A DNA stretch of 33,901 nucleotides from Pseudomonadota bacterium (GCA_031371465.1 JANMJR010000348.1:1-33901); one strand, 5' to 3'. Positions 3,956 through 27,444 are shown, counted from the first letter of the stretch. Made by a program: numbers and translations. The notes: generated from the sequence alone by a model not told the origin.

Positions 3956-4167
3956 GGGATCCGCCCCTTAGCGCTCTCACCAAATCGGTGATGAGGGCAG
4001 AACGAAAAAGTATTGTGTCCATAAAAGGTTGCGAGTTTGGCAAGCGGTCGAGTGCCGTTTCTAGGATGATCACCATTGCATGATTCGAACATCACCCTGC
4101 GAAGATGCATTGCACCGGAACCCAAATGATAAACGCATCCCGTAAAGGGTAAAGGCATGCCGTGGCT

Positions 4168-5892
4168 TTACGAAACCGCTTGCTCCACGATGTCAAAGCG
4201 CAGCCCGCTCGATCCTTCCCCTCGGCCGGGCTGTTTGCGCCGCCCAATCCAAAGGTGAGTCGAGCCATCCACCCAGCGCGCATATTGGTAGGCGCGCGTC
4301 ACGCGTGCGCCCTCTCGCGCCACTTCTTCATCATGCAGTAGCAATTCGTGGCCCGGCTCGAGCACCATCCCTTGCGGTTCAAATGTGTTGATCAAGCCGT
4401 CGGGCTCGAGCCGGGGAAGCGCGCCGCGCTTCAGACGCATGGCGCTGCCGTCGCGCACTGGCAGCAACGGAATCCAGTAGTCCGGCACGCTGGCGCCCAG
4501 GCGATACGCGCTCTGCGCAGCCGCTTGCACGTTGTTATTTGCCGCGGCGGCGCGATCCTGGCGCCCGCGCTTTTCTTGATAGGCTTCGAATCGATCCAGC
4601 GGAACTCCGGCTGGGCCGGCCACGACCCGTTCGACGCCCCAGGCGACATTCGCCATTTCATCGCGCAGGAACAACACCTCTTCCAGAGGCGCACTCTGCA
4701 AGCTCGGTCCGAGTACGGGTGGCAGCAGAAACAATTGCTGCGTATCGCCGGTGAGCACGAACATACGCCACGGTGAATTCGCCCCGTCGACCTGACTCGT
4801 GTGCGGGATCAGCAGGCGCTCACCAAAGGTGTTCGTGACGATGAGCGATTTAACTTGGGACAGCGAGCCAATCGTTAGTTCGACCGGCACGACAAACCAA
4901 TCATTGCTGTATTCGAGCGCAAACTTGACCAACAATATGCGTGCCAAATCGTGCGGATCCGCCTCCACTTGGGCCAAGTTGACCCTGGCGTCCTCGAATT
5001 CCCAAAACCGAGCGGCAGGCATGCCGCGAAAGGTCACCGGCGCGGGTAAGAAAGCGGCGGTAGATGTTGACGTGCCGCCACTCGCGCCAAGAGATTTTCC
5101 CTCGCGCACCACGAAAGAAAACCAATCCAAGTTGCCTTCCAAATATTCCGGCGCCGATAGCACGACTTCGCCTGCCGATGTCTGAGCCGCGGCGGCGAAC
5201 TCGTACTCGATCCGTTCCGAGATCCACGCGGGTTTGCTCGCGCCCTGCTGGAAAAGCTGGTCGTACCAGATCAGCCATCCGCTAACTGCGTCGATTACGC
5301 CGGACCGGTCGGCGAATGCAATCGTGTCAAACGGCGATTCTTGAAGCAGCTCAGGTAAAGCGCTGCGCGATCGCAATGGAGCTAGTCGCGCGTAGAGTTG
5401 AACGCCATCGACTACACGCTTACCTAGCACTTGCAGAAACCGCAAGCTGTCGCTATCCAGCCCATGTCGTTGCACGTCGCTCGGCGGCTGGAGCAAGTAT
5501 TCGCTGTGCAAGAAAACTGCTCGAGCTTGGCTTACCCCTTTTGCGCTCAACAACCGGCTGAGGTGTGATCCGGTCTCGGCAGCCAGTCTCCAATTCGTCT
5601 TTCGGTCGGCGACGACCGGTTCAGCCTCGACAGTTGTCTCAAGCGCGAGTGCGAGCGGCGCATAGGTTTCGGTAGCGCTCGAGCCCGACCAGGCGCCGGG
5701 CTGATAGCGGCTGAGTGACGCACTCTCAATGACCACCTGCGCCGAGGCGGCAGATCCAACGTCTTCGCCGTTGAACTCGCCAAACTGCCACTGGCGCGCC
5801 AACAGCCAGAGCGGATCATGAATGCGAGCTTGCAGACCGTCCTGTAACTGCGGACAGCCGGTGCTGAGTTCGAGTCGTATTTGTGATGCCAT
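4168..5892 (-). CDS. Uncharacterised 574-aa protein, last gene of the DUF6603-associated operon
   Basis: Long ORF starting 2 nt after the upstream stop. Motif-like blocks ARIHDPLWLLARQWQFGEFNGED, YSNDWFVVP, FLRDEMANVAWGVE and GRGEGSSGLRFD, which I recall from hypothetical proteins encoded next to DUF6603 genes. No signal peptide. Confidence 0.85.
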   Translation of the reverse strand: MASQIRLELSTGCPQLQDGLQARIHDPLWLLARQWQFGEFNGEDVGSAASAQVVIESASLSRYQPGAWSGSSATETYAPLALALETTVEAEPVVADRKTNWRLAAETGSHLSRLLSAKGVSQARAVFLHSEYLLQPPSDVQRHGLDSDSLRFLQVLGKRVVDGVQLYARLAPLRSRSALPELLQESPFDTIAFADRSGVIDAVSGWLIWYDQLFQQGASKPAWISERIEYEFAAAAQTSAGEVVLSAPEYLEGNLDWFSFVVREGKSLGASGGTSTSTAAFLPAPVTFRGMPAARFWEFEDARVNLAQVEADPHDLARILLVKFALEYSNDWFVVPVELTIGSLSQVKSLIVTNTFGERLLIPHTSQVDGANSPWRMFVLTGDTQQLFLLPPVLGPSLQSAPLEEVLFLRDEMANVAWGVERVVAGPAGVPLDRFEAYQEKRGRQDRAAAANNNVQAAAQSAYRLGASVPDYWIPLLPVRDGSAMRLKRGALPRLEPDGLINTFEPQGMVLEPGHELLLHDEEVAREGARVTRAYQYARWVDGSTHLWIGRRKQPGRGEGSSGLRFDIVEQAVS

Positions 5893-5894
5893 GC

Positions 5895-8800
5895 TTAGCC
5901 TCCGGTCCCCGTGTCCACCACACTCGCCAAGTCGATTGCGTCGCCGTTAAAGAACAGCGCTGGCATGCTAAGATCATCGGCTGCCAAACCCTCGGCCCGC
6001 GCGGAACTCTTGCCGGCGCGATCCCATGTTGCTCTGCCATCCCACACTGAAAATGCCATGCCGGAGACTGTCTGCCCTTCGAGGTTGACTAGCGTGGCTG
6101 GAATTTCCAATCGTACCCATTGCCCGACGGGCGGTAACGGTCCGACGCGTTGCCGGCTTGCGGCGCCATCAATCCCCCATTCGATTAGATTCTCGCCCCA
6201 ATAGACACGGTGCTCCCACGTTGTTCCGTCGTTCCATTGCAACATTACTTCGCGTGGCGGATGGACGGGATCGAGATACACGTGCGCAAACAATCGATCT
6301 CCAACACTCACCGGGAGCACGGCTTTGGCGCCGTCAAAGAAGTGTTGATGCATGCCGGTAGCGATCACGGATTGATGGGCGAACTTTCCGGAAATCGGTT
6401 CGGGATGTAGGCGAACCCAAGTCCAACTTTCAGCGTCTCCCAGCGCAACGGCGCCCTCCGGCAGCGCGTCATCAACCCAGATGGTTTCGCGCTGATTCGT
6501 TGGCGCTGTAGCGCGCATTTGCGCAAGTTCTAGCGTTTCGCGCAGGATGGTTTCGAGACTATCCAGATCCCACGACTGCCGTTCATCTGAGGCAACCGCA
6601 AGCAACATCGTCTGAGGTGGCGCTGCGTTGGGTTGATCGTAGTGGAAGCTAAGTCCGGTGGTCTCATGGCGATTCGGCACCACCTCTACCCATTCATCGA
6701 TGAGCAAACCGGCCAGGGGTTGATCGAAGCGCAGCGGCGTGGGGCCCAGCTGGGCGACTAATGACAGCCGCCCAGCAAGAATCCTCTGGTCGGCTGGCGC
6801 CGGCAGAGCGACCCATCGATCTTCGGACTGGAAGGGAAGCTGACCCACGCACAGATCCAAATGCGCGCCATCGCCCAGCGCTTCGGCATAGAGCATCGCC
6901 GCGCTTAGGCGCGCCACTCCGGCACGCACGTAGGAGGCGCGCTGGAACCACGTCACGGCGGCCAGCGGATCGTTAGCTTGCAGCGCTGTACTGGCGCCGA
7001 AGGTCCGCGCGAGATCCGCCGCATTTGCGAGTGTGATGCGCGGCAGCACGCGGAAATCGGCGCCAAATACTTCCTTCAATCGCGCAAAGTCGTGATCGCG
7101 TCGCGCATCGGGCGCAGCGTGGGCAATGTCGACTGCGCGCTCGAGATCTGCAATGCGCTCGAGGCGGCGACTGACTTCCTTGGCCACGGACCGAGCCTGA
7201 AGTAGCAGGTCGGCGCGCGCTTCGGCAGTCTCACCTACCACAGACACGGGCGCCGCGCCTTGGATACCGAAAAAGGCCATCCGGAGGAGCGCTGCTCGAA
7301 TTGCCTCGAGATTGACGGGAGCACCCTCGAGTTCCGCTTGCTGCGTCGGCAGCAAGGCTTGCAGCGCTTGTTGCGCTCGCGCCAATGACTGCGCTGCCTG
7401 CGTGGTGCGCTGGCTGAGCTCTTGCGCATCGACACCACTAGGCTCCGGTGATTCCGGCAGTGACAGGTCACGACCATCGAGCGACCTCGCGCCCGACAAC
7501 AGCTTGCGTGTAGTCCGCGTGACTTCCAGAAATTCGCCGAAGCTCACGATGTGGTCCGGCCAACCAGGATTGCGCACAAAACTCAGTCGAACCTCAGCTT
7601 CAGTCGGCACTGATCCGGGTTTGGTGCGCAGCAAATGAAACAGCAACCGCTGTTCCAGCTCTGAGCGTTGGGTATCCTCCTGTCCTTCGGCCATGTAAAT
7701 GGCATCTAACGGTGATAGTTCAAGCGTCGTCAGCGCCACCTCAACAGAAGCGTGGACCGCGTTATTGTTCGCGTGGACGTAATCTGCTTGGCACCGGACA
7801 TGCGCCGGGGGCGGCAGCAAGGTTGCCGCCCAAGCGTTGAGAATGGGCTCGGCCTGTGCGCGGACTTGTTGCTGACTAATCGGCCAACCGGCAGGTGCGA
7901 CGCCGGCCGAGCTGGGAAATAGCACGCATAGCCGGTGCGTCAGACCAGTGCCGCTGCGCGGCGTGCGCACGACTTCTAACTCTGGCGGCGGCATTTCACC
8001 CGCTGCAATAGCGTCTAGCGTGGCGCCGGCACGCAGCGGATTGCCCTGCACGATCTGATAAACACTTTCCGCCACAACCGTGTCGCCCACCGCATCGACC
8101 ATCTCATCGAGCGCTTGTAGTTGCACATCGAGCGCTGTGAAGTCATCACTGCCTGGGCTGGGAAAGTCCAGTGTTGCGTTACCGAAGGGAATCGTTGTGG
8201 CATCCCATTGGACTTGAGGAGCGCTGCGGCGCTGTCCCGCTTTCCAGCGTCGATGCAGATCCAGTCCGTCGACCACATTGTTGGCCACCAGCGACTCCAA
8301 CGCCCGATCCCATTGCTGGTTGAGCAGTGCCGCAAGCGCCGCTCTTGCCGCAGCCAGATCAGCTTCGGCTTTGCCACGGGTCCCTCCTTCCTTAGCCAGA
8401 CCTTCTTGATCAAACGTCGCAGCCAGGGCTTCTTGAGCAGCGATGAAACGCTCCAGCGCTGGGATCGAGTTCGGATTCGCGGGGTCGCGCAGCTTGGCCA
8501 ACGCGGCCAGCGCCGTGACGCGATCAGCCAGCCGTGCATTGAAGGAATGCTGCGCTGAGTCGGCAGCGGCTTGAGCCTCTGCTACCTCTAACCGCAAACC
8601 AACCAGACGATCCGCCCATAGCTCAAAATCTCTCCCTTCAGTGACTGCTACCTCGTATCTGCCCGACCAGTCTGCGCGGCTGGTCGGCTTCGCGCCCTGC
8701 TGCGCGGTGAAGGCTTGTCGCGCCTGTGCCGCTCTGGTGGTCGCCGCGTTAGCCTGCTGCTCGAGGGCCACGACCGTGTTGATCTCGAACTGATAACACT

Positions 8801-11210
8801 GCTGCAACCCTTCAATGTCGACTTTTACGCGTCGGGCATCTTCGCCGCGCTGATGGGCTTGATCGCGCTGCTCGTACAGCGCTGCTACCTCGCGCGCCAA
8901 CTGCTCGGTCTCGGTCACTTTGGCTTGGGCCGCGGTGAGCTCGTCCACTTGCTTGAGGCTCGCAAGCGTGCGGAACCGATGGGTGTAACGATCCAGCCCT
9001 TGCTCGTGCAGGCCGCGTTCGAACCGGTAGCCGAGCAATGCCCCTAACGATTGGCCTTCGCGCACACCGTCTAGTATCCATTTGGCTCGATGCACCCGAT
9101 CTGAAGACAGATCGACGGCAAAGGGACTGTCGCCGCTGTCGCCCTGCGCTAGCTGTGCCAGATAACCGCTGCGCAGCACGGCCGCCGTCGCGGCGTGTGT
9201 CAGAGACGGCGCTTGTACATATCCCCTATTGCTGGCCGATCGATACAACGGACCCGTGGCGCCCGTCGGCGGTGGTTCAATAAGCCGCAGCGGCGCCGCA
9301 CGTTTCAAATTCTCCAACCAGCCATATGCGCCAAGGCGGATACCGGCAGGTGCGGCCTTGCGCAATTGCGCCAGACGTCTCGTCGCCAGCGAGGTCGCCC
9401 ATGCGTCAAAGCGAAAAGTCACCAGATCCAGCGCTTCTGCGATCAGTACTTGCCGTACAGCATCCGGAAGCGTCTGTAGGAAATTCGCCGCAGGATCATG
9501 CAACAACTTAAGCGCTCGGGCTAGCAACACATCGCGCAGCGAGCTGGTGACGAGCTCGCGCGGCTCTAGCGGATCTCTTGCCGCGTCGGAAAACTCACGC
9601 ATGACATAGTGACAAGAGTTAGCTTCCTGCCCCAACAAAGTCACCGGATCGTCCGCAATCCCCACGTGTAGGGCGCGCGCCGCTTGTTGACGCCACTGCT
9701 GTCGATGCGCGCGCCACCAATCAGCGAGCGCAGTCTCTTGGGCATTCCCAAGCGTCGACGTCCAGCGATCGAGTGCCGCAACCGGCAGAATGCCATAGGG
9801 TTGCGCATCGACGCGCAGTGCCGATAAGGGGCCGCGCGCGCGGACAAAATTCATCAGGTGCTCGAGTAGAAACTCGGCGCTGGTAGCAGCCAAAAGCTGG
9901 CGCAGCAGCGCGCTGTCATTGCCCGTCAAGAAGGCGGCGTTCATGAACTTGGACTGAAGCTGTTCGGTGTCACCAGCGCCACGCACATGCGAAAGCACGA
10001 GTGGCGAAATCCCTAGCGCCTTGGCGGCCAGGTCACCGTCCGAGTCGGGCTTGGCGAGGGCGTTACCCAGTTCCACGGCGAAGGCTCCGGCAGCATCACG
10101 ATCTGCCGAGCGGCGCCCCGAGGAAGCTTCCGCGGTATTGTTGGTCGGCACGTTCTGCGCGACGAAGGCGAGGCCGCCAGTGTAGTGATGCGCCTCAAAC
10201 AATTGCTCGAGCCGCTCCGCCGAGACGGTTTCATTCAAAGATGCTTTCACCCCGAACACGACCAGCCTTTCAAACCCAGTGGCTGCCTGCTCGTCCTTAA
10301 GCGGAATCCTCAGCGCCATCCCGATGGCTTCGGCCGCGGCGAAGTCCAGCATCCAACGCATGCCTTCGTCAATCGGCGGTAGTCCGCTCACATTGACGAT
10401 CGGGTTTGCTTGCGGCGACGGGCCGGTCGGCAGTGTGTCTGGAATCGGTTTTCCCCACGCGGTGATCAGCGGCTGCTGCTCGCGATAGCCGATCGCTACC
10501 CAGCGATCCGGCAACACCAATGTATGCGGTGCGCGCGTCCAAGCATGGTCCCTTCGTCCAACAGGGATGCCGCCGACCGGATTCAATACACGAACAATCC
10601 ACGCCGCTCGCGTTGCACCGAAGCGATCCACGAGTTGCTGCCATCCTTGTTGCTTGCGCTGCGTCGCATCGTCGCTAGCAGGGCTGTTGCCAACCTGATC
10701 CCAGAAGTGCTTGCCCCAGCGCTCTTCTTCGGCGGTCAGCTCAGGTTCATGCGTGTCGATGTGCACGTCGTCGGGATAAACTCGCAGCAAGAGTTCGGCG
10801 CCGGTCCCATTCTGCGTTGGCGCGAATCGCGTCTCCAAGCGTACCGGCAGCAGCAACAAAGGCTGCTTGGTGGAGACGGTTCCTTCCAGTGTGTCGGTCC
10901 CAAGTAGGCGCGCAGTGGCGGCATCGCGCGCTGTGCTAAATTCTCCGTACTGGACGGAAAAATCGGCGACTTGCTGCTTAGCGTTGTCGACTGCGGCTTG
11001 CGCGCCGGGGAGGCGGGCAAAGACACCGTTCAATTCAGCTTGTGCTTGATCGCGTTGGCCGATGAGGTCGTTCAGACGCCGCTGGGCGGATTCAAGCCGG
11101 CCCAATGCGTTGTCATAAGCGACTTGCAGCGCTCGAATCTGGCGTTCCCATACGTGGTTTCTAACCCGAGGAATGTTTACGCCTTCGCCAGTTTCGTCAA
11201 TGGGTTTCAT
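5895..11210 (-). CDS. Uncharacterised 1771-aa protein with two coiled-coil regions and a C-terminal Trp-rich beta domain
   Basis: GAGGA RBS upstream of the ATG. Blocks PLLLLPVRLETRF, RVYPDDVHID, QPYGILP, FRFDAWATSLA, GQSLGALLGYRFERGLH and GLLIDEWVEVVP...FHYDQPNAAPPQ. Ala/Gln-rich coiled coils at the N-terminus and at about 8300-8960. Confidence 0.88.
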   Translation of the reverse strand: MKPIDETGEGVNIPRVRNHVWERQIRALQVAYDNALGRLESAQRRLNDLIGQRDQAQAELNGVFARLPGAQAAVDNAKQQVADFSVQYGEFSTARDAATARLLGTDTLEGTVSTKQPLLLLPVRLETRFAPTQNGTGAELLLRVYPDDVHIDTHEPELTAEEERWGKHFWDQVGNSPASDDATQRKQQGWQQLVDRFGATRAAWIVRVLNPVGGIPVGRRDHAWTRAPHTLVLPDRWVAIGYREQQPLITAWGKPIPDTLPTGPSPQANPIVNVSGLPPIDEGMRWMLDFAAAEAIGMALRIPLKDEQAATGFERLVVFGVKASLNETVSAERLEQLFEAHHYTGGLAFVAQNVPTNNTAEASSGRRSADRDAAGAFAVELGNALAKPDSDGDLAAKALGISPLVLSHVRGAGDTEQLQSKFMNAAFLTGNDSALLRQLLAATSAEFLLEHLMNFVRARGPLSALRVDAQPYGILPVAALDRWTSTLGNAQETALADWWRAHRQQWRQQAARALHVGIADDPVTLLGQEANSCHYVMREFSDAARDPLEPRELVTSSLRDVLLARALKLLHDPAANFLQTLPDAVRQVLIAEALDLVTFRFDAWATSLATRRLAQLRKAAPAGIRLGAYGWLENLKRAAPLRLIEPPPTGATGPLYRSASNRGYVQAPSLTHAATAAVLRSGYLAQLAQGDSGDSPFAVDLSSDRVHRAKWILDGVREGQSLGALLGYRFERGLHEQGLDRYTHRFRTLASLKQVDELTAAQAKVTETEQLAREVAALYEQRDQAHQRGEDARRVKVDIEGLQQCYQFEINTVVALEQQANAATTRAAQARQAFTAQQGAKPTSRADWSGRYEVAVTEGRDFELWADRLVGLRLEVAEAQAAADSAQHSFNARLADRVTALAALAKLRDPANPNSIPALERFIAAQEALAATFDQEGLAKEGGTRGKAEADLAAARAALAALLNQQWDRALESLVANNVVDGLDLHRRWKAGQRRSAPQVQWDATTIPFGNATLDFPSPGSDDFTALDVQLQALDEMVDAVGDTVVAESVYQIVQGNPLRAGATLDAIAAGEMPPPELEVVRTPRSGTGLTHRLCVLFPSSAGVAPAGWPISQQQVRAQAEPILNAWAATLLPPPAHVRCQADYVHANNNAVHASVEVALTTLELSPLDAIYMAEGQEDTQRSELEQRLLFHLLRTKPGSVPTEAEVRLSFVRNPGWPDHIVSFGEFLEVTRTTRKLLSGARSLDGRDLSLPESPEPSGVDAQELSQRTTQAAQSLARAQQALQALLPTQQAELEGAPVNLEAIRAALLRMAFFGIQGAAPVSVVGETAEARADLLLQARSVAKEVSRRLERIADLERAVDIAHAAPDARRDHDFARLKEVFGADFRVLPRITLANAADLARTFGASTALQANDPLAAVTWFQRASYVRAGVARLSAAMLYAEALGDGAHLDLCVGQLPFQSEDRWVALPAPADQRILAGRLSLVAQLGPTPLRFDQPLAGLLIDEWVEVVPNRHETTGLSFHYDQPNAAPPQTMLLAVASDERQSWDLDSLETILRETLELAQMRATAPTNQRETIWVDDALPEGAVALGDAESWTWVRLHPEPISGKFAHQSVIATGMHQHFFDGAKAVLPVSVGDRLFAHVYLDPVHPPREVMLQWNDGTTWEHRVYWGENLIEWGIDGAASRQRVGPLPPVGQWVRLEIPATLVNLEGQTVSGMAFSVWDGRATWDRAGKSSARAEGLAADDLSMPALFFNGDAIDLASVVDTGTGG

Positions 11211-11232
11211 GCGAAAGTCCTCTCAATCTGGC

Positions 11233-12042
11233 CTACTGCCCGGCGTCGAGAAAATTGAACAACTCGGCCGAGGCGGCATCCACTGCAGCTTGTGTCGCTT
11301 GAAGCTCTGCCTGCGCGCCTGGAATTCGACTATTGAAATCGGCAAGAGTAGCCGTCAGTTGATCGCGCCGCGCAAGCAATGACGCGCGATCGCTTTCCGC
11401 ATCTTCCTGCTGAAAGCGGGAGAGGGTGAGCGATTCTTGCAAAACCATCGCGCGTGCCGATAATTCGCTCGCAACCTGCTCGAGCGCGGTCCGATCGAGA
11501 GGATCGCGCGCGATCTCAGTTCTCCAGCGCTCCAGATCAGCCACTTGCTGCTGCGCCGCCTTGAGCGTCGACTGCGCTGATTGCAGCGCCGCCGTCGTTT
11601 CGCTAACTTGCCGCTCAGCCGAATGCACATCCATTTGTGCCTGCTCGACCGCACGTTGGCCATTGCTGACCGCACCGTGGGCGGCGGCCGCGTCAGCTCG
11701 CGCCTGATCGCGCCGCGCGACGAGTTGATCCAATTGCCGCTTCCACACTCTCCAGGCTGGATTGCGACGCGGCGGTTTGCCGTCGTCGACTTCGATGGTG
11801 GATTCCGGCTCATTTGCCACATGAGCTTCGATCTGAGCATCCAATTCCGTTACGCGCGCATCCGCCGCTGCCGCGGCAACTTCAAGAGAAGGAATCTGGG
11901 ATTGAGCTTCAGTGACCCGGGTGCGTGTCGTGACGACACGCTCCTGTGCTGCCGACAGGGCCTGCTGCTGCGTACTCACCAGCTTCGCAACGGCTTGCAC
12001 TGCCGCTTCACGACGGGATTTTTCCTGTTCCAAAAATGTCAT
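11233..12042 (-). CDS. 269-aa coiled-coil protein
   Basis: Ala/Gln/Glu-rich heptads interrupted by one Pro-rich loop (HVANEPESTIEVDDGKPPRRNPAWRVW). Fits between its operon neighbours with 11- and 22-nt gaps. Confidence 0.85.
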   Translation of the reverse strand: MTFLEQEKSRREAAVQAVAKLVSTQQQALSAAQERVVTTRTRVTEAQSQIPSLEVAAAAADARVTELDAQIEAHVANEPESTIEVDDGKPPRRNPAWRVWKRQLDQLVARRDQARADAAAAHGAVSNGQRAVEQAQMDVHSAERQVSETTAALQSAQSTLKAAQQQVADLERWRTEIARDPLDRTALEQVASELSARAMVLQESLTLSRFQQEDAESDRASLLARRDQLTATLADFNSRIPGAQAELQATQAAVDAASAELFNFLDAGQ

Positions 12043-12053
12043 GATGCTTACCC

Positions 12054-15041: not shown

Positions 15042-15062
15042 GATCTCGCTCCACTCTCGCTA

Positions 15063-18000
15063 CTACGCTGCTTCAGTTTGTCGATATCTAGCGGTGTTAC
15101 GACGCCGGAACGCTGCTTGACCTGCGGCGCCTAAGCTGACTACGGCATCGAGCACGGGCAGGGGCAGCACATAAGGCTGCGGCTCAGGTTCAGCCGGTCG
15201 TGTCGGATCGATTAACAAGGTCTCGTAGTCAATGCTCCGATCCAGTGCTGCCTCATACGCATAGGCCAGCTCATCCATGCCAAACTGCAGCCCCGCCCCC
15301 TGTGTGGCGAAGGCCGGCTGCGCCAACTTCTCGTCATCACTTAGCTCTTGGTATTGCGCCAAGGCAAACGGCTCGCTCACCGGCGTAGTACTGATCGGCA
15401 TCGGTGTTGCACCGATACCCGCGGCCTTGAGCGTGAAGGTCGTAGGCCCACTTGCAAGCTGCGCGTTGCCTATCTTGGTGATCGGCCGATTCAGCGGCAG
15501 CACGCGCTGGCGCACCGTCAATTGCGCTAACGGATGCACCCGAAAGCTCGTTGCCGTGCTCGGCGTCGCGCGGATCGATACCACCGGCGGCTCTGCGCGG
15601 GCCAGCGTGGCACTCCAATTGCGTTGATCGCGCAGCGCCTCCATGAGTAGGCCCAGCGCATCGATCGGCGCCGGCAGTGGCGGGGGCTCGCGCTGCCCAA
15701 ACTGGCGATCAAAGTGCACCGACACTTTGAAGAAGAACACCTTGATCGTGGCTTTGCCTTGTACGTGCCAGGGCGTGGGTCCAGCAAGCGAGCCCTCAAA
15801 GTGGATGCCCACCAGCAGATGTCCGTGATAGCGCAAAGCCAGCGCTGCGCCCACCTCTACGACAAAGCTGAGTGGGGCTAATTGAAATAAGGCATCAAAA
15901 CCCAGTGCGCCGTCAAAGCTGAAGCCTCCCCCGGCCGCATGCAGGTCTAGCCTGGCGCCAAACTGCACGGTGTTCGAGGTCAGGGCCAGATACGCTTCGC
16001 AGCGCAGTTGCAGAGTCTCGCCGTCGGACAGACTGAGCGCCAGGCGCGCCAGCCGCGGCAAGCCCGCTGGCGCGGCAAAGCGCGGGTGCAAGCCACCTAC
16101 GGCCAGCACGAAGTTGGGTTTTGCTCCCCAGTTGGCGCGCAGCGCCATATCGCCGGTGAGCGCAAACTGCAGGATGCGTGAGTCGTAGAGCGTGGCATCG
16201 AGCGCCACGTCGCGGCGATTGAAATCGATTACGCCAATGGCGTCCATGCGCACTTGCACCAGGGCGCGCTGCGCATCGGGTAACAGCGCTTGTAAGCGTC
16301 CGAGGATCACCAAGCGCACCGGATCGGGTAGCTCCAGCACTACTGCCAATTCCAGTGTCAGCAGTGTCGGCGTGCCCCAAGCGAGTTGTAGCATCGGACC
16401 GAACACATAGCGGCGGTTCAACGGTGGGAACACGGCGCGCAGATCACTGATAATCTGCGGAGCGTTGCGAATCGGATCGTCGGGAAATAGCAGCGAGCCC
16501 AGCGTGCCGGTCTTCAACCCCGCGCGCAGCACTTCCACCATGACGCTGCGATTCACACCCAACAAACCACCGATGCCAGTCAGAGTAAAACCAAACCCCA
16601 ACTGAATCGGCGCAAAACCCTCAGCAGAGATCAGTATCAGCAGCGAGTAGCCCTTCGATCCATCAGGCATGCGGGTGCTCAGCAACCCCACCGCCTTCAC
16701 CGCTATCGTCTCAGCTATCTCCAATTGCAAGATACCGCTGTATTCCGCCCGCTGTGGATCAAAGCGTACAAATCCACCGCCCACTACACCAGGAGCGTCG
16801 ATGACGATGCCGATCCCAATCGGCAGCGCGGGGCGAAGGGTCAGTTCAGCGGAACCAAGGTTGCCGTGACCGGGACTCACGGCGGTGCGAATGCCAATCT
16901 GTTCGACGATCAGGAGCACCGGACCGAGGGCGACGGTCGCGTTCACCGAAGTTGTCAACGCCAAGCCGCCGTCACTAGTCGACAAACCGACGCCGAGTAC
17001 ATCGATAGTGACTGGGCCAATGCGGCGCCCAATCGCTATGCTTGTGCTTAGCTCGGCCCGCCCTCCCAAGCGCACACCGTGGCGATGCGACCACGACAGA
17101 TCGACGTCCGCTTGGGCGACCAGCGAATCCACTTCGATGAAGGACAATTCAGGTTTGACAGTCAACCGACCGCCTTGGATTTCCAAGCGCAGCGTCGCAT
17201 CGGTTTCTTCGCCGCTGACCTGCACGTTCAGCGTGGCCGCGACCGAGGTAGCCTCGATCTTAGTGCTACCGGCCGTGAGCAGCGTGATGCTCTCGGCGCC
17301 CTCAGGCGCTGCAAGGGTCAAGTCGAGTTTCACCTCCGCGCCTGAAGCACCGGTACCCGCCTGCGGCTCATTCAGTCCGGTGCGTAGCAGTGGCGTGCTG
17401 CCCGGCCGCAGTAGCAGCGCCAGTCCGCTACCGAGATCACCACTGGCGGACATTCCTATCGAAAGCGTCGAAGAAAGCGGAATCCGTAGGTTTGCTGTAC
17501 CCGATGCGTATGGCGCAAAACCGATCCCCCCGTCGGCGACCCCAGGAGCAGAGGCGGGCAGGCCGAACACTGAGATACCGGCTTCGGCGGTCAGCGGCCC
17601 GTTTGAGCCAATGAGGGGCAGCAAGAGTTGTATCTGCCGCTGGTGTGCGAGTGGCGTCCCGCCGTGCAAGCGCGCTAATGGAATCGCCGGCAATTCGCGA
17701 CGGGTGACCTCGGTGGCGAGGTGTTGCAGCACCCCGCCGAGCCGAGTTACTAGGGTATCAGCATCGAAGGCAGTCGTGCCCCAACCATAGGTCTCGCGCA
17801 GCAGACCAATCGGATCGCTCAACAACATCGGCAGGCGATCCCAGTGGACGATGTGCCGCAAGTGCACGACCTGGAACGTGGCCGGATCAGCATCGTATCG
17901 GCGCAATTCGAACCAGCCAATCAAAGCCGCGATATCAAACACCGGCCGCGACGCGACTGCGGCAGCTTGGATCAAGTACAGGTCGAACAGCCGGCTGAGG

Positions 18001-18347
18001 AAGTTTTTCTTAATCTCAGTGCGATCGAGATAATCTTGTGGGGCCTGAAGGCGCAGATCGCCCAGATCAGTGAGCAATTCGGCCACCGCGCCCGCCAACT
18101 CGGCGAGGGCCAGTGCCTGCTGGTCGGTTGAAGACTCGGGATCGGCCGCCAGCGTCGTCCAGTCGTTGAGTCGCGTGCCGACGCGGGCCATGTCTAGACC
18201 GGCCAAACCAATATCGTCGGCGCTCGACGGCAGATCCCAGCCCAGTTTGGCCAGCAGGATTCGCGGGCCACCAGCGATCTTGGCAATCGATCCGGCGGCG
18301 GTCAGTACCGCGGCGACCCCCGCCAGCAGTGTGCGTTCAACGCTCAC
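15063..18347 (-). CDS. DUF6603-like 1094-aa beta-rich protein
   Basis: Helical N-terminal region, then a long Gly-rich run of amphipathic beta strands (GFGFTLTGIGGLLGVNR, LAWGTP, GDMALRANWG, LAVGGLHPRF, GSLAGPTPWHVQGKA), ending with HPLAQLTVRQRVLPL. The DUF6603 label is from memory. The GTG start overlaps the PLD stop (GTGA). Confidence 0.78.
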   Translation of the reverse strand: MSVERTLLAGVAAVLTAAGSIAKIAGGPRILLAKLGWDLPSSADDIGLAGLDMARVGTRLNDWTTLAADPESSTDQQALALAELAGAVAELLTDLGDLRLQAPQDYLDRTEIKKNFLSRLFDLYLIQAAAVASRPVFDIAALIGWFELRRYDADPATFQVVHLRHIVHWDRLPMLLSDPIGLLRETYGWGTTAFDADTLVTRLGGVLQHLATEVTRRELPAIPLARLHGGTPLAHQRQIQLLLPLIGSNGPLTAEAGISVFGLPASAPGVADGGIGFAPYASGTANLRIPLSSTLSIGMSASGDLGSGLALLLRPGSTPLLRTGLNEPQAGTGASGAEVKLDLTLAAPEGAESITLLTAGSTKIEATSVAATLNVQVSGEETDATLRLEIQGGRLTVKPELSFIEVDSLVAQADVDLSWSHRHGVRLGGRAELSTSIAIGRRIGPVTIDVLGVGLSTSDGGLALTTSVNATVALGPVLLIVEQIGIRTAVSPGHGNLGSAELTLRPALPIGIGIVIDAPGVVGGGFVRFDPQRAEYSGILQLEIAETIAVKAVGLLSTRMPDGSKGYSLLILISAEGFAPIQLGFGFTLTGIGGLLGVNRSVMVEVLRAGLKTGTLGSLLFPDDPIRNAPQIISDLRAVFPPLNRRYVFGPMLQLAWGTPTLLTLELAVVLELPDPVRLVILGRLQALLPDAQRALVQVRMDAIGVIDFNRRDVALDATLYDSRILQFALTGDMALRANWGAKPNFVLAVGGLHPRFAAPAGLPRLARLALSLSDGETLQLRCEAYLALTSNTVQFGARLDLHAAGGGFSFDGALGFDALFQLAPLSFVVEVGAALALRYHGHLLVGIHFEGSLAGPTPWHVQGKATIKVFFFKVSVHFDRQFGQREPPPLPAPIDALGLLMEALRDQRNWSATLARAEPPVVSIRATPSTATSFRVHPLAQLTVRQRVLPLNRPITKIGNAQLASGPTTFTLKAAGIGATPMPISTTPVSEPFALAQYQELSDDEKLAQPAFATQGAGLQFGMDELAYAYEAALDRSIDYETLLIDPTRPAEPEPQPYVLPLPVLDAVVSLGAAGQAAFRRRNTARYRQTEAA

Positions 18348-20488
18348 TGCTCAATGTCCTCACGCTCAGGAAACTTGCTCCATTTTCCGGTGAAGAAATC
18401 GAATCCGCGCGTGCCCGAAATCGGTCTTACTACGGCTTCGCTCGGCTTGAGGTGCACCCCGAGAGCGGCAAGGTGTTTGCGAGGCGTGTCGAGCCACCCG
18501 CCGTCTTCCTTCGGATATTCCAAGACGAAGCCAGGAAGGGGAGCTGGGTTTGCCGCCACAACATGTTCGAGCGCGCGCTTCGCCATGGGTCGCCAAAGTT
18601 GTGCCAGCCATTTGTGCTCCGGGCCGCGGTTGAGCGCCTCATCATCCGGGTTGGGAATCCCTTCCTTGACTAAGCCAAGATGTTCCGCGAACAGCCGTCG
18701 CCGCATACGCTCCGCGAATGGCGTAACCGTCCCGGGGGTCGGCGGAAGGAGGTTAACGTTGAGTTCCGAGGCAGTCGTTTCGCCGAAGACCAACGGGCTC
18801 AACAGCAAGTTGTGGTCGAGTGACAGCCCGTCGAGGTTCGCTGATCCAACCGTCGCCCATGAGTCGTCTATCACCGCGCCTTTAGCGTGGATATAGACCG
18901 GCGCGGCCCATGGACGAGGGTGGTTTTCGGCATAACTCCAACGCGTGAACACGCCGACACGATCGCCGCCCGCGCCGCGCAGTTGCTCGATGCGCCAAGC
19001 CTGCCGCCGGGGATAGAAAAGCACGTCCGGCTTGATCGGCACCACGAGAATCAACTCGATATTCTTATTTTTCTTCAAGACCTCGACGAGCGCATCGGTG
19101 ATGACCGAATCGGTAAAGTATTGAGTCTCGAGGTAGATGTAGTGCCGTGCGGCAGCGAAGGCGCGCAAGTAGCCTTCTAGGATCCCCTTCTCGCTCTTGC
19201 CGGCCAGTTCAGAGAAGCGTTTCCCGCTGAGAGTACGCACCACTTGCGCCTTGGTGACGGCGTCTTCGCCGCCCGACTCGGGTCCGGGAGTGGGCGCTAT
19301 AGGCAGCTTTTCCGGCAAGCCCACATCCTCATTCCAGTACAACCGAAATGAGTCGTACAGGTCGCGCACCGCTGGCCCGACAACCGCGAGACTGAGGTCG
19401 TGCACCATGTCGGAAGTGTTGGTTCCCCGATGCGGGTCGTCAATGCGGTGACCGAAAAAGTCGAAGTAACGCTGTGAGAACGGCGATCCGATTACTACCG
19501 CTCGCTTGTCATCCGTAATCACCATCTTGCAGTGCTGTACGCCGTGGTCCGGCGCTGGCTGGTTAAAGCCGCGAACCGTGACCCTGGGGGTGGCCGGCGC
19601 CGCGGCAGCGATTGCTCGCCCGAAGTATCGTTTCGCCTCGTCAACATCCGTTGTGTCCTCAAGCTTCACCTTGATGAAGACGAACTCGGCAAAGAATGCC
19701 ACCACGGTCAAGGCCAACACGATCGGAAAGAACGGGATGCCAATACCCAAGAGCGCGCCCACGCCGCCAACCCCCAACCCCGCCGCCAGCGGCGTGAGAA
19801 CGCCGAGCCAGAACACGCCTTCCGGCCAGCCGAGGCCCGGTTCATTCAGCAAGATTCTGATCGTGCAATCGGCCCGTGCCTGGTCAATAAGCAAGCGCTC
19901 CGGTCGATCGTCGTTAATCCGTGGCGGCGCGTCAGCGTCCTGCGGATTGCGCGGCTCCAGTGGGGGATTGAAAAACTTGAACACCAGAGCAGGTTTTTCG
20001 TCCTTGGCTTGCGCATTGAAGTCCGGTGGTAGAGCGAAGAAAAGTTGAGTGATGTTCACCGAGTGCTTCGCCGCTCGGATATCGTCGGCGACGCGACCGA
20101 ATGCCTCGTTGCCATCGACGAGTAGTTTGACGGCGTTGCCGTCACTGGCGAACTTCGCCGTTCCAGTGAGATGCGTGACGAGTAGGCCGTCCAGATCAGC
20201 GCTTGGAATCGTGATGTCGCCAAGATTGTGGGTGGCAACCGCACCATCAAGCTCACGCTCTGACATCACCGGACGCTTGGTGATGTCAAGCACGCGGATT
20301 TTAAATGAGCGCGGCTGATCGTCCACGCCCAGTATCTCTGGGACCTTGAGCGTGAACCCACCCGCTGTTTTTACCTCGAACTTAGCGAGCTGCTCAGTGG
20401 TGAGCAGCCAATCACCGCGCGCCTCGACAGTAAGCCCAAGCCGCTCATCGCCAGCCTCATCGATGATGCGTCCAGTCACGACAATCAT
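18344..20488 (-). CDS. Phospholipase D family protein (two HKD motifs) with internal hydrophobic hairpin, 714 aa
   Basis: HCKMVITD and HAKGAVID...GSANLD motifs. YIYLETQYF matches the IYIENQ[F/Y]F motif of lipid PLDs, and VHDLSLAVVGPAV is also present. Start moved to ATG 20488 because of a GGAG RBS; the track start at 20560 is a TTG without one. Confidence 0.9.
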   Translation of the reverse strand: MIVVTGRIIDEAGDERLGLTVEARGDWLLTTEQLAKFEVKTAGGFTLKVPEILGVDDQPRSFKIRVLDITKRPVMSERELDGAVATHNLGDITIPSADLDGLLVTHLTGTAKFASDGNAVKLLVDGNEAFGRVADDIRAAKHSVNITQLFFALPPDFNAQAKDEKPALVFKFFNPPLEPRNPQDADAPPRINDDRPERLLIDQARADCTIRILLNEPGLGWPEGVFWLGVLTPLAAGLGVGGVGALLGIGIPFFPIVLALTVVAFFAEFVFIKVKLEDTTDVDEAKRYFGRAIAAAAPATPRVTVRGFNQPAPDHGVQHCKMVITDDKRAVVIGSPFSQRYFDFFGHRIDDPHRGTNTSDMVHDLSLAVVGPAVRDLYDSFRLYWNEDVGLPEKLPIAPTPGPESGGEDAVTKAQVVRTLSGKRFSELAGKSEKGILEGYLRAFAAARHYIYLETQYFTDSVITDALVEVLKKNKNIELILVVPIKPDVLFYPRRQAWRIEQLRGAGGDRVGVFTRWSYAENHPRPWAAPVYIHAKGAVIDDSWATVGSANLDGLSLDHNLLLSPLVFGETTASELNVNLLPPTPGTVTPFAERMRRRLFAEHLGLVKEGIPNPDDEALNRGPEHKWLAQLWRPMAKRALEHVVAANPAPLPGFVLEYPKEDGGWLDTPRKHLAALGVHLKPSEAVVRPISGTRGFDFFTGKWSKFPEREDIEQ

Positions 20489-20531
20489 TGAGAAATCTCC
20501 CGCAGAGCATATTCCAGAGCCTGACGAAATT

Positions 20532-20560
20532 AATTTGCGCCAACTACGCTTGCATGTCAA
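20532..20560 (-). promoter_or_regulatory. Possible sigma70 promoter of the six-gene operon
   Basis: Perfect TTGACA (20560-20555), 17-nt spacer, weak -10 (CAAATT), about 45 nt upstream of the PLD ATG. Confidence 0.3.
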
Positions 20561-21267
20561 TACTAAGCGGAGGAAGCGAAGGGCAATGCGTGGTCACCCG
20601 TATTCCCGACAACGGCTACACGAGCTTCAGCGTTAATCATCGCCGCGATTTGTTGAACTCGTTCAAACCACGCCACGCTTCGGCCAAGCGCGGTGCACGG
20701 GTTGTAACCTTGTTAACGGCTCGAGGTTGCGCCCTCCGGCCGAAGCTCGTGTCGTTAAGGACAGCTTGCGCTAGCGTGAGCGATCCGTTCCCCAAGTCAC
20801 TAGTTCTTACCGAAGTTATATGCAATATCTAAGATCCGGGCGTTATCGCAGTAGATCGATTGAAGGGGTTGCGTCAGCGCGGCGCCAATTTGCACGAACG
20901 TCGAATGTCGGGAGTCCGCTGGTAAGCGTGAATTTGAGTTTAACCGATCGTTGTTCGCCCCAGCGGTCGGCCCGTGGCCGGAGGCTGAACGTCCTAGCGG
21001 CGGGATTGGGAAATCTTCGTTGGTCGCCGCCAAGCCGACCTTCGCCAATGGCCGATTCAAATTTTTCTGAACGGCAAGTTTCGGGGCAGCGAGAAAAATT
21101 CGCTTGTCAATTTCAATGACGGTAAACAGCGGAAATTGTGAATTCGGATAGCGGGCATCGAAGGAACACTTTTGGCCGGTCGCCGCCCATGTTTTCTAAT
21201 GCTGCCTGTAAGATCGGGCCGCGACTTCTATATTTAAGATAGTCCGGAAGCAAAAATCCAACGTTGT

Positions 21268-26022: not shown

Positions 26023-26132
26023 GCCGATCCCCTTGTCACACTTCTCTACGCCACCGTGCACGCATCTGCGACGACGTTACCAGAAAAATTGCAATAGCGA
26101 AACGGCGGCCGATGAACGGTCGTGATCCGAGG

Positions 26133-27335: not shown

Positions 27336-27361
27336 GGTTATGTGCGGCAAATGAAATTTTC

Positions 27362-27439: not shown

Positions 27440-27444
27440 AAACA

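What the first reader, a model, noticed from the sequence alone, without database searches (positions are those of the whole stretch)
4168..20488. 16.3 kb six-gene operon: phospholipase D + DUF6603-like + four uncharacterised proteins, a candidate undescribed membrane-acting machine
Seen: six co-oriented genes (714, 1094, 995, 269, 1771, 574 aa) with a GTGA overlap and gaps of 21, 11, 22 and 2 nt. None has a signal peptide, and there is no ATPase, nuclease, sheath/tube or transporter motif. Recalled, not verified: the order DUF6603 -> FEPNY..DFPW protein -> PVRLETRF protein -> DPLWLLARQWQ protein recurs as a block of hypotheticals in distant prokaryotes, and I know of no assigned function. Inference: a large heteromeric cytoplasmic or lysis-released assembly with a PLD as enzyme or cargo. 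Possible roles are lipid remodelling/transfer, a toxin particle or anti-phage defence.
Basis: partly seen in the sequence, partly recalled or inferred. Interest (0 to 1): 0.92.

Follow-up and report, generated by a model that had tools for sequence, protein, structure and literature searches.

The report
Unknown protein machine carrying swappable hydrolases
This operon pairs a phospholipase D with large proteins of unknown function that recur together in many bacterial and some archaeal genomes, with different degradative enzymes in the same slot, which suggests an undescribed enzyme-delivering protein complex.

Summary
Six co-oriented minus-strand genes (4168-20488) have exactly the stated lengths and junctions. 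They encode a two-HKD phospholipase D, a DUF6603 protein, three large proteins with no Pfam, NCBIfam, PADLOC, PHROG or PDB sequence match, and a coiled-coil protein.

The recalled synteny is real. DUF6603 lies directly upstream of g3 in 51 of 53 loci, and g5 and g6 lie downstream in 59 of 59, across ten named phyla. The same order holds on a haloarchaeal plasmid.

Three findings are new.
- The PLD sits in a polymorphic enzyme slot that elsewhere holds PhoD-like, M64, S8, trypsin-like or lipase-like enzymes.
- Neighbouring genes occur fused elsewhere: lipase-DUF6603, DUF6603-g3, g5-g6 and g6-S8.
- Some g6 relatives carry PA14, discoidin, laminin-G, TIG, lamin-tail or collagen modules.

No core protein has a signal peptide, and there is no immunity gene or NTPase.

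My best reading (about 0.45) is a released or surface-exposed multi-subunit complex that binds targets and presents a swappable hydrolase, here a membrane-inserting PLD. The rivals are a nutrient-scavenging scaffold and an anti-phage system. I found no paper on it.

The parts
18344..20488 (-). g1: 714-aa phospholipase D, the variable enzyme of the module
   Evidence: PLDc_2 3e-15 and PLDc 6e-8, both above cut-off. A profile of seven context PLDs matches plant PLD alpha1 and human PLD1/PLD2 chains at 1e-15 to 1e-13. Start supported by GGGAGA 7 nt upstream.
19511..19534 (-). First HxKxxxxD motif (residues 319-326)
   Evidence: Regex on the translation. H319, K321 and D326 are invariant in the 7-sequence alignment A5.
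18866..18889 (-). Second HxKxxxxD motif (residues 534-541), followed by GSANLD
   Evidence: H534, K536, D541, G548, S549 and N551 invariant.
19661..19816 (-). Hydrophobic insertion in the PLD (residues 225-276), a candidate membrane-inserting hairpin
   Evidence: Kyte-Doolittle 19-residue windows up to 2.47. In alignment A5 three PLDs carry such an insertion here and four carry one after the second HKD motif.
15063..18347 (-). g2: 1094-aa DUF6603 protein, proposed enzyme-specific carrier or adaptor
   Evidence: PF20248 7e-135 over residues 440-1005. Start overlaps the g1 stop by 4 nt. Paralogues cluster by partner enzyme within Nitrospira. Fused to a lipase-like domain (17 of 36) or to g3 (4 of 36) in longer relatives.
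12054..15041 (-). g3: 995-aa core protein of an unnamed family
   Evidence: 1059 relatives among the 8000 candidates scored. 559 matching stretches in the species-genome collection. No Pfam or PDB match. An Atlas structure search with homologue P0080 found only its own family.
13275..13916 (-). Lineage-specific coiled-coil insertion in g3 (residues 376-589), paralogous to g4
   Evidence: g4 residues 49-263 against g3 residues 376-589: 29.6% identity, E 8e-8. Only the two closest relatives reach 100% query coverage in their best local alignment; most of the other 117 listed relatives reach only 32-59%.
11233..12042 (-). g4: 269-aa coiled-coil protein, present only in the Nitrospira-type subclade
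   Evidence: Only sub-threshold coiled-coil matches. tblastn places a g4-like gene between g3 and g5 in 33 of 75 loci.
5895..11210 (-). g5: 1771-aa core protein of an unnamed family
   Evidence: Downstream of g3 in 59 of 59 loci with room. No Pfam or PDB match. Fused to g6 in 36 of 54 longer g6 relatives.
8316..8963 (-). Lineage-specific insertion in g5 (residues 750-965), read by eye as coiled-coil-like
   Evidence: In alignment A4 it is filled in 3 of the 16 other sequences (L002, L033, L074) and is 10-14 residues in the remaining 13.
5901..6563 (-). Accessory domain at the g5 C-terminus (residues about 1550-1770)
   Evidence: 42-54% identical to an insertion (residues about 130-340) in six longer g6 relatives; all six have PA14 on record and F5/8-type-C is on record for three of them. 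Residues 1590-1760 are filled in only 2 of the 16 other A4 sequences, L002 and L033; the other 14 have 16-36 residues there. No PDB match and no second copy in the window's genome.
4168..5892 (-). g6: 574-aa core protein of an unnamed family, proposed distal or target-binding subunit
   Evidence: A profile finds 5564 representatives at E<=1e-3 and 2296 at <=1e-30 among 1.84 billion. Relatives carry PA14, F5/8-type-C, Laminin_G_3, TIG, collagen repeats, LTD or an S8 peptidase.
20489..21267 (-). 779-nt non-coding stretch upstream of g1, presumed promoter and leader region
   Evidence: No ORF of 100 aa or more on the minus strand. No Rfam family at gathering score. No sigma-70-like consensus site inside it.

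Best explanation
The six genes encode one multi-subunit complex. It has four conserved core proteins (DUF6603, g3, g5, g6), a lineage-specific coiled-coil protein (g4) and one exchangeable hydrolase. In this window the hydrolase is an intact two-HKD phospholipase D with a hydrophobic hairpin. I propose that DUF6603 is the enzyme's dedicated carrier and links it to g3. I propose that g5-g6 forms the scaffold, and that its g5-C-terminal/g6 end is exposed and binds a target surface; in relatives that end carries lectin or adhesion modules. The whole complex would act outside the cytoplasm after release by a route that needs no signal peptide, such as lysis, as is recalled for Tc toxins and tailocins. 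There it would bring the hydrolase to a foreign cell envelope or polymer, and in this window the PLD would insert into and hydrolyse target membrane phospholipid. Shown: the conservation of the module, the polymorphic enzyme slot, the gene fusions, the intact PLD motifs, the binding-type domain fusions and the absence of signal peptides. Inferred: physical assembly, the roles of the subunits, the extracellular site of action and an antagonistic purpose.
For: 1. One unit. DUF6603 is directly upstream of g3 in 51 of 53 loci, and g5 and g6 are downstream in 59 of 59, in ten named phyla. The same order is seen on a haloarchaeal, a Streptomyces, a Rhizobium and a Gemmatirosa plasmid. In five genomes searched whole, every DUF6603 copy lies within about 17 kb of a g6 copy.
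2. Polymorphic enzyme slot. I classified the same-strand upstream gene of 55 full-length DUF6603 genes: PLD 13, PhoD-like 13, M64 7, S8 6, trypsin-like 3, other 13. Junctions are mostly -16 to +46 nt. Nine loci have two enzyme+DUF6603 pairs in tandem. In Nocardia an S8 peptidase without a signal peptide follows g6 instead.
3. Enzyme and DUF6603 travel together. Within Nitrospira, DUF6603 paralogues form clades by enzyme class (PLD 8 rows, M64 7 rows, both SH-aLRT 100). Labels need 16 changes against a shuffled mean of 33.8, and 0 of 200 shuffles were as low.
4. Fusions. 17 of 36 longer DUF6603 proteins carry PF00561. In P0324 a lipase-like stretch at 998-1178 lies N-terminal to DUF6603 at 2115-2786. 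4 of 36 are DUF6603-g3 fusions. 36 of 54 longer g6 relatives are g5-g6 fusions. One g6 relative is fused to an S8 peptidase.
5. Binding-type modules. g6 relatives carry PA14 + F5/8-type-C, three Laminin_G_3 with sialidase-lectin and pentaxin matches, Ig-like domains, TIG and collagen repeats. The archaeal g6 carries a lamin-tail domain (2e-29), and the archaeal g5 is annotated as having a BGTF surface domain. The Streptomyces g3 has an FG-GAP repeat, and the Streptomyces enzyme-slot protein has PG_binding_1. The window's own g5 ends in the domain that sits beside PA14 in those g6 relatives.
6. The PLD is a true phospholipase type. Both HKD motifs are intact and the nearest solved chains are PLD alpha1 and PLD1/2. 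All seven context PLDs aligned have a hydrophobic insertion, at one of two positions.
7. No signal peptides in the core proteins. No NTPase or nuclease domain was found.
Against: No structure or complex prediction could be run, so assembly and subunit roles rest on gene order and fusions alone. No export route is identified. The one narrow test for lysis genes found none: three Rhizobium lysozyme or glucosaminidase proteins blasted against the gene sets of the 75 loci and the window gave no hit. Binding-type modules were seen in a minority of relatives: 11 of 54 longer g6 relatives have such Pfam families on record, and the window's g6 has none. PhoD-like phosphoesterases and M64 peptidases are not typical toxins (recalled), and they would also fit nutrient scavenging. 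There is no immunity gene. That argues against kin-targeting toxins but is neutral for receptor-restricted particles. There is no expression or protein evidence. Some plasmid neighbourhoods hold toxin-antitoxin, NB-ARC and RHS genes, which would also suit a defence role.
Confidence: 0.45

Rival explanations
1. It is a surface-attached or released exoenzyme scaffold for nutrient acquisition or matrix remodelling. The core holds phosphoesterases, peptidases, lipases or a PLD on polymers or debris, bound through lectin modules, and liberates phosphate, peptides or lipid head groups. It is not a weapon.
For: The enzyme classes (PhoD-like, S8, M64, trypsin-like, lipase-like, PLD) are typical degradative exoenzymes. 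Carbohydrate-binding-type modules occur on g6 relatives. There is no immunity gene. The carriers are mostly labelled as uncultured or metagenome-assembled environmental genomes (record titles), and the window's DNA is held by freshwater-sediment and sediment metagenome runs.
Against: Ordinary exoenzymes carry signal peptides. Two such signal-bearing peptidases do lie beside the module, whereas the module's own proteins lack them. About 4500 residues of conserved core is a heavy investment for display. The module is patchy: not found in 39 of 40 relatives searched. The PLD carries a membrane-type hydrophobic hairpin. Many carriers are Nitrospira (25 of 75 loci), which are nitrite-oxidising autotrophs (recalled).
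Confidence: 0.2
2. It is an intracellular anti-phage or abortive-infection system. The large core proteins would sense infection, and the swappable enzyme (PLD, protease, phosphoesterase or lipase) would be the effector that destroys the infected cell.
For: Swappable effector enzymes on a conserved core are typical of defence systems (established knowledge). No signal peptides. Patchy distribution. Plasmid neighbourhoods include AbiE toxin-antitoxin, PIN and NB-ARC genes. There are weak DrmC-like hits on the PLD.
Against: No PADLOC model matches beyond the second-HKD region or coiled coils. The best DrmC hit is E 6e-6, and NCBIfam DrmC scores 32.5 bits against a cut-off of 133. No NTPase, nuclease or known sensor domain was found. 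The PA14, discoidin, laminin-G, TIG, collagen, lamin-tail, FG-GAP and PG-binding modules on relatives are extracellular-type modules. No relative was found in 2.9 million viral contigs.
Confidence: 0.15
3. It is a lipid remodelling or lipid-transfer machine of the producer's own envelope, one of the first reader's options.
For: The window's enzyme is a PLD with a hydrophobic hairpin and weak similarity to cardiolipin synthases. Lipase-like fusions to DUF6603 exist.
Against: 29 of the 55 classified slots hold peptidases or PhoD-like enzymes. The module is not found in 39 of 40 relatives searched, so it is not a housekeeping function. It occurs in diderm bacteria, monoderm bacteria and archaea alike, whose envelopes differ. 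The cardiolipin synthase scores are far below cut-off (50.3 bits against 290).
Confidence: 0.05

Closest known systems
Tc (ABC) toxin complexes of Photorhabdus, Yersinia and others
   Same: Several very large subunits without signal peptides, an exchangeable enzymatic component, receptor-binding decorations on the large subunit, and release without classical secretion. These Tc features are recalled.
   Different: No TcA, TcB or RHS-repeat Pfam family matches any of the six proteins at E<=0.1. Here the enzyme is a separate full-size hydrolase or is fused to DUF6603, not a C-terminal hypervariable region inside a cocoon. No fold comparison was possible.
Streptomyces umbrella (Umb) toxin particles (PMC11062931, passages read)
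   Same: A multi-protein particle that combines coiled-coil elements, diversified lectin modules for targeting and a polymorphic toxic activity.
   Different: UmbC has a TAT signal, ALF repeats and a C-terminal toxin domain, with an immunity gene downstream of its toxin gene for UmbC1 and UmbC3, while none was identified for UmbC2. The module here has no signal peptide and no room for an immunity gene. Its enzymes are whole hydrolases, and it ranges over at least ten phyla plus haloarchaea.
Type VI secretion lipase effectors: Tle1-4 (GxSxG lipases) and Tle5 (dual-HKD PLD)
   Same: The same two lipid-attacking chemistries appear as exchangeable payloads: a dual-HKD PLD and a lipase-like alpha/beta hydrolase. 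The Tle classification is recalled.
   Different: No VgrG, Hcp or sheath genes at the locus. No Phage_GPD match in the window's genome, which is 88% complete. No adjacent immunity gene. Other payloads here are peptidases and phosphoesterases.
Phage-tail-like particles (tailocins, extracellular contractile injection systems)
   Same: Lack of signal peptides and release by lysis (recalled), and binding modules at a distal subunit. A language-model feature search placed a g6 homologue near phage tail and hub clusters, but at only 0.80-0.86, which the tool calls a lead only.
   Different: No sheath, tube, baseplate or hub family in Pfam or PHROGs. Profile-profile comparison of all four core alignments with a VgrG/gpD alignment gave probabilities of 0.3% or less. 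No relative in IMG/VR.

Membership tests
PLD superfamily (HKD phospholipase D) | Two HxKxxxxD motifs in one chain | tested here: met
   Motifs at residues 319-326 and 534-541. The H, K and D are invariant in alignment A5.
PLD superfamily (HKD phospholipase D) | Pfam PLD models above gathering score | tested here: met
   PLDc_2 56.5 bits (cut-off 27) and PLDc 32.8 bits (cut-off 21.9).
PLD superfamily (HKD phospholipase D) | Phospholipid hydrolysis rather than nuclease or synthase activity | not testable with these tools
   Indirect only. All five PDB matches at E<=0.01 are named phospholipase D; the four best are plant PLD alpha1 and PLD1/PLD2 chains. Cardiolipin synthase models score far below cut-off.
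DUF6603 (PF20248) | Match to the family model above gathering score | tested here: met
   450.8 bits against a cut-off of 27, covering model positions 2-501 of 502.
Tc (ABC) toxin complex | TcA-type domains and a TcB/TcC RHS-repeat cocoon | tested here: not met
   No such Pfam family at E<=0.1 in any of the six proteins. Sequence test only; folds not compared.
Umbrella toxin particle | TAT signal on the toxin-bearing subunit, and an immunity gene after the toxin | tested here: not met
   No twin-arginine or hydrophobic N-terminus in the core proteins. Enzyme-to-DUF6603 junctions are mostly -16 to +46 nt. Umb features from passages of PMC11062931.
Umbrella toxin particle | ALF repeats forming a ring | tested here: inconclusive
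   Pfam gave no repeat family, but I do not know whether Pfam holds an ALF model. No fold was available.
Contractile injection systems (T6SS, eCIS, tailocins) | Sheath, tube, baseplate and VgrG/gpD hub proteins | tested here: not met
   No Pfam or PHROG hits. hhalign against a VgrG/gpD alignment gave probabilities of 0.3% or less. No Phage_GPD match in the window's genome.
T6SS Tle5-type PLD effector | Dual-HKD PLD encoded beside a VgrG and an immunity gene | tested here: not met
   The HKD motifs are present, but there is no VgrG in the genome and no immunity-sized ORF at the junction.
PADLOC-listed anti-phage systems (DISARM, Lamassu, Wadjet) | Full-length matches to the system's proteins and presence of its partner genes | tested here: not met
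   DrmC hits cover only residues about 516-580 of the PLD, best E 6e-6. NCBIfam DrmC scores 32.5 bits against a cut-off of 133. LmuB and JetC hits fall on coiled coils. g2, g5 and g6 have no hit.

The most novel reading that the evidence does not exclude
The module is a previously unrecognised kind of effector-delivery particle, independent of classical secretion signals. It would stand beside Tc toxins, contractile injection systems and umbrella particles, be shared by at least ten bacterial phyla and haloarchaea, and use a dedicated DUF6603 carrier to load whole hydrolases (PLD, lipase, peptidases, phosphoesterases) onto a lectin-tipped g3-g5-g6 scaffold that attacks foreign cell envelopes.
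Probability: 0.35. Interest if true: 0.9.

Novelty: categorically new. Interest (0 to 1): 0.8.

Why it matters
The g6 family alone has 5564 representatives at 50% identity. It always travels with three other large families that have no name, no solved relative by sequence and no paper in the searched library. If the module is an enzyme-delivering particle, it would be a new route of microbial antagonism or predation in soil, sediment and wastewater communities, including key nitrifiers (Nitrospira). It would also be a natural modular chassis that accepts unrelated hydrolases. If instead it is a defence or scavenging system, it would still define four new protein families and a new way of coupling enzymes to a scaffold. 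Cultured carriers exist for direct tests: Neobacillus citreus, Gemmatirosa kalamazoonensis, Streptomyces longwoodensis, Rhizobium lusitanum, Nannocystis sp. and Candidatus Nitrospira defluvii.

Tried and rejected
Sequence and family searches that found nothing
- PDB sequence searches with profiles of g3, g6, DUF6603 and g5 gave nothing below E 0.2. The g5 C-terminal domain alone gave only a chance-level hit.
- PHROGs gave only a PLD-type family of unknown function for g1 and sub-threshold coiled-coil hits for g4.
- The IMG/VR scan with the g3 alignment found no relative.
- In the phage collection DUF6603 had no match. g6 had one match, in an UNVERIFIED virome contig.
- Rfam found no family and ARAGORN found no tRNA in the window.
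- Profile-profile comparisons among g3, g5 and g6 showed no shared domain.

Leads tested and dropped
- Phage-hub lead. An Atlas feature search with g6 homologue P0124 listed SH3, phage-tail and GPD clusters at 0.80-0.86. hhalign of A1-A4 against a VgrG/gpD alignment gave probabilities of 0.3% or less, so I dropped it at sequence level.
- Common docking domain. I looked for one across the enzyme classes. hhalign found only a shared C-terminal stretch of about 110 residues between the S8 and trypsin-like classes (98%), and nothing among PLD, PhoD-like and M64.
- Composition as a sign of transfer. The island GC is 0.605 against 0.565 and 0.562 in the flanks, but GC3 lies within the range of the flanking genes, so this is not informative.
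- Lysis genes. Three Rhizobium lysozyme or glucosaminidase proteins had no relatives in the 75 loci or the window. This is a narrow test.
- 142-aa ORF at 3730-4158, 9 nt downstream of g6. It has no family hit and an odd composition, and I did not count it as part of the module.
- Promoter and terminator scans. Promoter-like sites were near, and terminator-like sites below, the shuffled expectation.

No RNA holder listed
- The one sequencing-run search listed 8 DNA runs from 2 studies and no RNA run.

Literature
- Three searches found nothing on this module: 'DUF6603'; DUF7800, PF20248, IPR046538 and PF25077; and a Nitrospira, PLD and subtilisin combination.
- For the umbrella toxins I read passages of PMC11062931. 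Of 10.1101/2025.04.24.650519, PMC13274773 and 10.1101/2023.12.09.570830 I saw only the search listing and the start of the abstract.
- No supplements were opened. They could hold family lists that I did not see.

- The search of earlier findings, structure prediction and complex prediction. Fold search therefore could not be used.

Unpublished genome
- The statement that 1 of 27 same-order relatives has a g6 match rests on G038, which is flagged as unpublished.

Full report
THE OBSERVATION

| Gene | Coordinates | Length | Note |
|---|---|---|---|
| g1 | 18344-20488 | 714 aa | from the ATG at 20488, which has GGGAGA 7 nt upstream |
| g2 | 15063-18347 | 1094 aa | GTG start, overlaps the g1 stop by 4 nt |
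| g3 | 12054-15041 | 995 aa | |
| g4 | 11233-12042 | 269 aa | |
| g5 | 5895-11210 | 1771 aa | |
| g6 | 4168-5892 | 574 aa | |

The gaps are 21, 11, 22 and 2 nt. Family searches gave the following.
- g1 matches PLDc_2 and PLDc above cut-off, and g2 matches DUF6603 at 7e-135.
- g3, g5 and g6 match nothing in Pfam, NCBIfam, PADLOC or PHROGs.
- g4 gives only sub-threshold coiled-coil matches.

The window is contig C220 of a 3.8-Mb assembly in 522 contigs, 88% complete. The flanking genes are ordinary: GGDEF, MgtE, ComM-type Mg-chelatase, an MFS transporter and an ammonium transporter. They are unrelated to the flanks seen at other loci.

THE RECALLED SYNTENY IS REAL

- g3 has 1059 relatives among the 8000 candidates scored, none with a name or a Pfam domain on record in the 120 listed.
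- An alignment of 16 of them (A1) found 559 matching stretches in the collection of one genome per species, and 75 loci were fetched.
- tblastn of the six window proteins on these loci, followed by a count restricted to loci with enough flank, gave two results. DUF6603 is directly upstream of g3 in 51 of 53. g5 and g6 are downstream on the same strand in 59 of 59.
- The loci come from Nitrospirota 25, Acidobacteriota 17, Chloroflexota 7, Verrucomicrobiota 5, Bacteroidota 5, Pseudomonadota 4, Bacillota 2, Myxococcota 2, Gemmatimonadota 1, Actinomycetota 1 and unassigned 6.
- tblastn of g6 against plasmids found 15 records, five of them from haloarchaea.
- In the one archaeal locus examined (Salinigranum marinum) the order is PhoD-like enzyme, DUF6603, g3, g5, g6.
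- A g6 profile finds 5564 representatives at E<=1e-3 and 2296 at <=1e-30 among 1.84 billion.
- The module is patchy. It was not found in 39 of 40 relatives of the window's genome: 0 of 9 in the same genus, and 1 of 27 in the same order. That one is G038, an unpublished genome.

WHAT VARIES: THE ENZYME

I called ORFs in all loci and clustered them, then scanned representatives against Pfam. The gene just upstream of DUF6603 is an exchangeable protein, about 800 aa in the five named classes and 134-735 aa in the unassigned ones. Of 55 full-length DUF6603 genes with a same-strand upstream gene, the classes are as follows.

| Class | Count | Basis |
|---|---|---|
| PLD | 13 | |
| PhoD-like | 13 | PhoD 34-40 bits, a short stretch; with DUF7800 in some |
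| Peptidase M64 | 7 | |
| Subtilase S8 | 6 | |
| Trypsin-like | 3 | Trypsin_2 only 21.2 bits against a cut-off of 27.6; NAL1_N above cut-off in one |
| Other | 13 | |

Ten further upstream-region ORFs outside the five named classes (nine in the slot itself, one two genes upstream) were also scanned. One was DUF2515, one was M64-like and eight had no family.

Other features of the slot:
- Junctions are mostly -16 to +46 nt, so there is no room for an immunity gene.
- Nine loci carry two enzyme+DUF6603 pairs in tandem, for example PLD-DUF6603-S8-DUF6603-g3.
- In a quick maximum-likelihood tree of the 55 DUF6603 proteins, Nitrospira paralogues group by partner enzyme rather than by genome. The PLD clade has 8 rows and the M64 clade 7 rows, both with SH-aLRT 100. 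The labels need 16 changes against a shuffled mean of 33.8. The PLD label still needs 5 changes overall, so enzymes have been swapped repeatedly.
- I found no docking domain common to all enzyme classes.
- In Nocardia the enzyme, an S8 peptidase without a signal peptide, follows g6 instead.
- Two peptidases downstream of g6 in other loci have classical signal peptides and are probably unrelated neighbours.

FUSIONS LINK THE NEIGHBOURS

- Among 36 DUF6603 proteins longer than 1915 aa, 17 carry PF00561. In P0324 a stretch at 998-1178 matches bacterial triacylglycerol lipases (8e-9), and DUF6603 occupies 2115-2786. That mirrors the gene order.
- Four of the 36 are DUF6603-g3 fusions.
- Among 54 g6 relatives longer than 1005 aa, 36 are g5-g6 fusions. 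P0290 was checked residue by residue.
- One g6 relative carries an S8 peptidase at its C-terminus.
- So every adjacent pair except g3-g5 occurs as one polypeptide somewhere. This is the main argument for a single physical complex.

WHERE IT ACTS

g6 relatives carry several binding-type modules:
- PA14 plus F5/8-type-C, inserted near the N-terminus;
- three Laminin_G_3 domains with sialidase-lectin and pentaxin matches;
- Ig-like domains, TIG and collagen repeats.

Other subunits carry such modules too.
- The archaeal g6 ends in a lamin-tail domain (2e-29), and the archaeal g5 is annotated as carrying a BGTF surface domain.
- The Streptomyces g3 has an FG-GAP repeat and is annotated as VCBS-repeat-containing. 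The Streptomyces enzyme-slot protein has a peptidoglycan-binding domain.
- The window's own g5 ends in a domain of about 200 residues that is 42-54% identical to the insertion beside PA14 in those g6 relatives. So the g5-C-terminus/g6 junction is a hot spot for accessory modules.

These are module types that established knowledge places on extracellular proteins. Yet no signal-peptide-like N-terminus was found by my crude test: g3 0 of 69, g5 0 of 35, g6 0 of 40, DUF6603 2 of 31 (weak), and enzymes 1 clear case of 44. That combination is what is recalled for lysis-released particles such as Tc toxins and tailocins.

THE WINDOW'S ENZYME

- The PLD has both HxKxxxxD motifs, at residues 319 and 534.
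- A profile of seven context PLDs matches only chains named phospholipase D (plant PLD alpha1, PLD1 and PLD2 at 1e-15 to 1e-13), with no nuclease or synthase at E<=0.01.
- It contains a 50-residue hydrophobic stretch at residues 225-276. All seven context PLDs aligned have such an insertion, three at this position and four after the second HKD motif. This suggests that membrane insertion matters.

LINEAGE-SPECIFIC ELABORATIONS

- g4 occurs between g3 and g5 in 33 of 75 loci.
- The window's g5 has an insertion at residues 750-965 and the C-terminal accessory domain, both shared with few relatives.
- The window's g3 has a g4-like insertion at residues 376-589 (E 8e-8).

COMPARISON WITH KNOWN SYSTEMS

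- By sequence the core is not related to Tc toxins, contractile injection systems or any PADLOC system.
- By logic it resembles Tc toxins and the Streptomyces umbrella particles (PMC11062931, passages read). These are large particles with targeting modules and an exchangeable toxic activity. The module here lacks their defining parts: RHS cocoon, ALF ring, TAT signal and immunity gene.
- The PLD and lipase payloads parallel the T6SS Tle families (recalled).
A structural kinship to a known machine therefore remains open.

VERDICT

I am confident (about 0.85) that the genes form one functional module whose products assemble. I give 0.45 to the specific reading: a released or surface-exposed, lectin-guided complex that delivers a swappable hydrolase, here a membrane-attacking PLD. 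I give 0.2 to a scavenging scaffold, 0.15 to anti-phage defence and 0.05 to remodelling of the cell's own lipids. The remainder is for something not yet imagined. Three literature searches found no paper on it. I rate it categorically new by sequence, with interest 0.8.

Noticed in passing
window 3730-4158 (-): A 142-aa ORF starts 9 nt after g6 on the same strand. It has no Pfam or PHROG hit and a composition rich in His, Cys and Arg, so it is probably not a gene.
   Followed up: partly
window 23185-26061 (-): A 958-aa ORF with a long Ala/Glu/Lys-rich repetitive middle, a hydrophobic segment and no Pfam match. It lies between the ComM-like gene and the MFS transporter.
   Followed up: no
window 26133-27572 (-) and 27433-28479 (+): The longest ORF of the YbfB-type MFS transporter overlaps, head to head, a 348-aa HTH + HATPase-like + DUF4325 (STAS-like) gene by 140 nt. 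The Pfam match begins at residue 94, so the transporter's true start is probably further in.
   Followed up: no
L096 (MT835531.1) 30106-39228 (-): A contig in the phage collection, labelled 'UNVERIFIED: Bacteriophage sp.' and taken from a faecal virome, carries g3, g5 and g6 in order at its end. ORFs of 200 aa or more overlap in all six frames, and the record has no annotation. Whether it is viral is unknown.
   Followed up: partly
L003 1186-3811; also L009, L014, L017, L031: In several Nitrospira loci the module is preceded on the same strand by a DUF481 protein and coiled-coil OmpA-family proteins. L003, L009, L014 and L017 have both; in L031 only the OmpA-family cluster was seen. They could be a lineage-specific envelope partner.
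   Followed up: partly
L074 20301-21656: In a Saprospiraceae locus, a gene with an Effector-associated domain 11 (EAD11, 2e-21) directly follows g6.
   Followed up: no
window g3 residues 36-45, g5 residues 118-128, g6 residues 4-9: All three unnamed core proteins have a short [IV]RL[ER] stretch near the N-terminus (PIRLRV, PVRLETRF, QIRLEL). It could be chance or a shared assembly strand.
   Followed up: no
L029 and L075; L043 and L069: Two metagenome-assembled genomes each hold two separate copies of the module. In the first pair the enzyme slots differ (unassigned against PhoD-like); in the second, L043 has PhoD-like and L069 has a PLD.
   Followed up: partly
L079 (Rhizobium lusitanum plasmid) 7069-19662: In this variant g3 and g5 each appear to be split into two genes (357 + 731 aa, and 946 + 597 aa). 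No enzyme gene is annotated directly upstream of DUF6603. Two GH25 lysozymes and a glucosaminidase lie about 10 kb downstream.
   Followed up: partly
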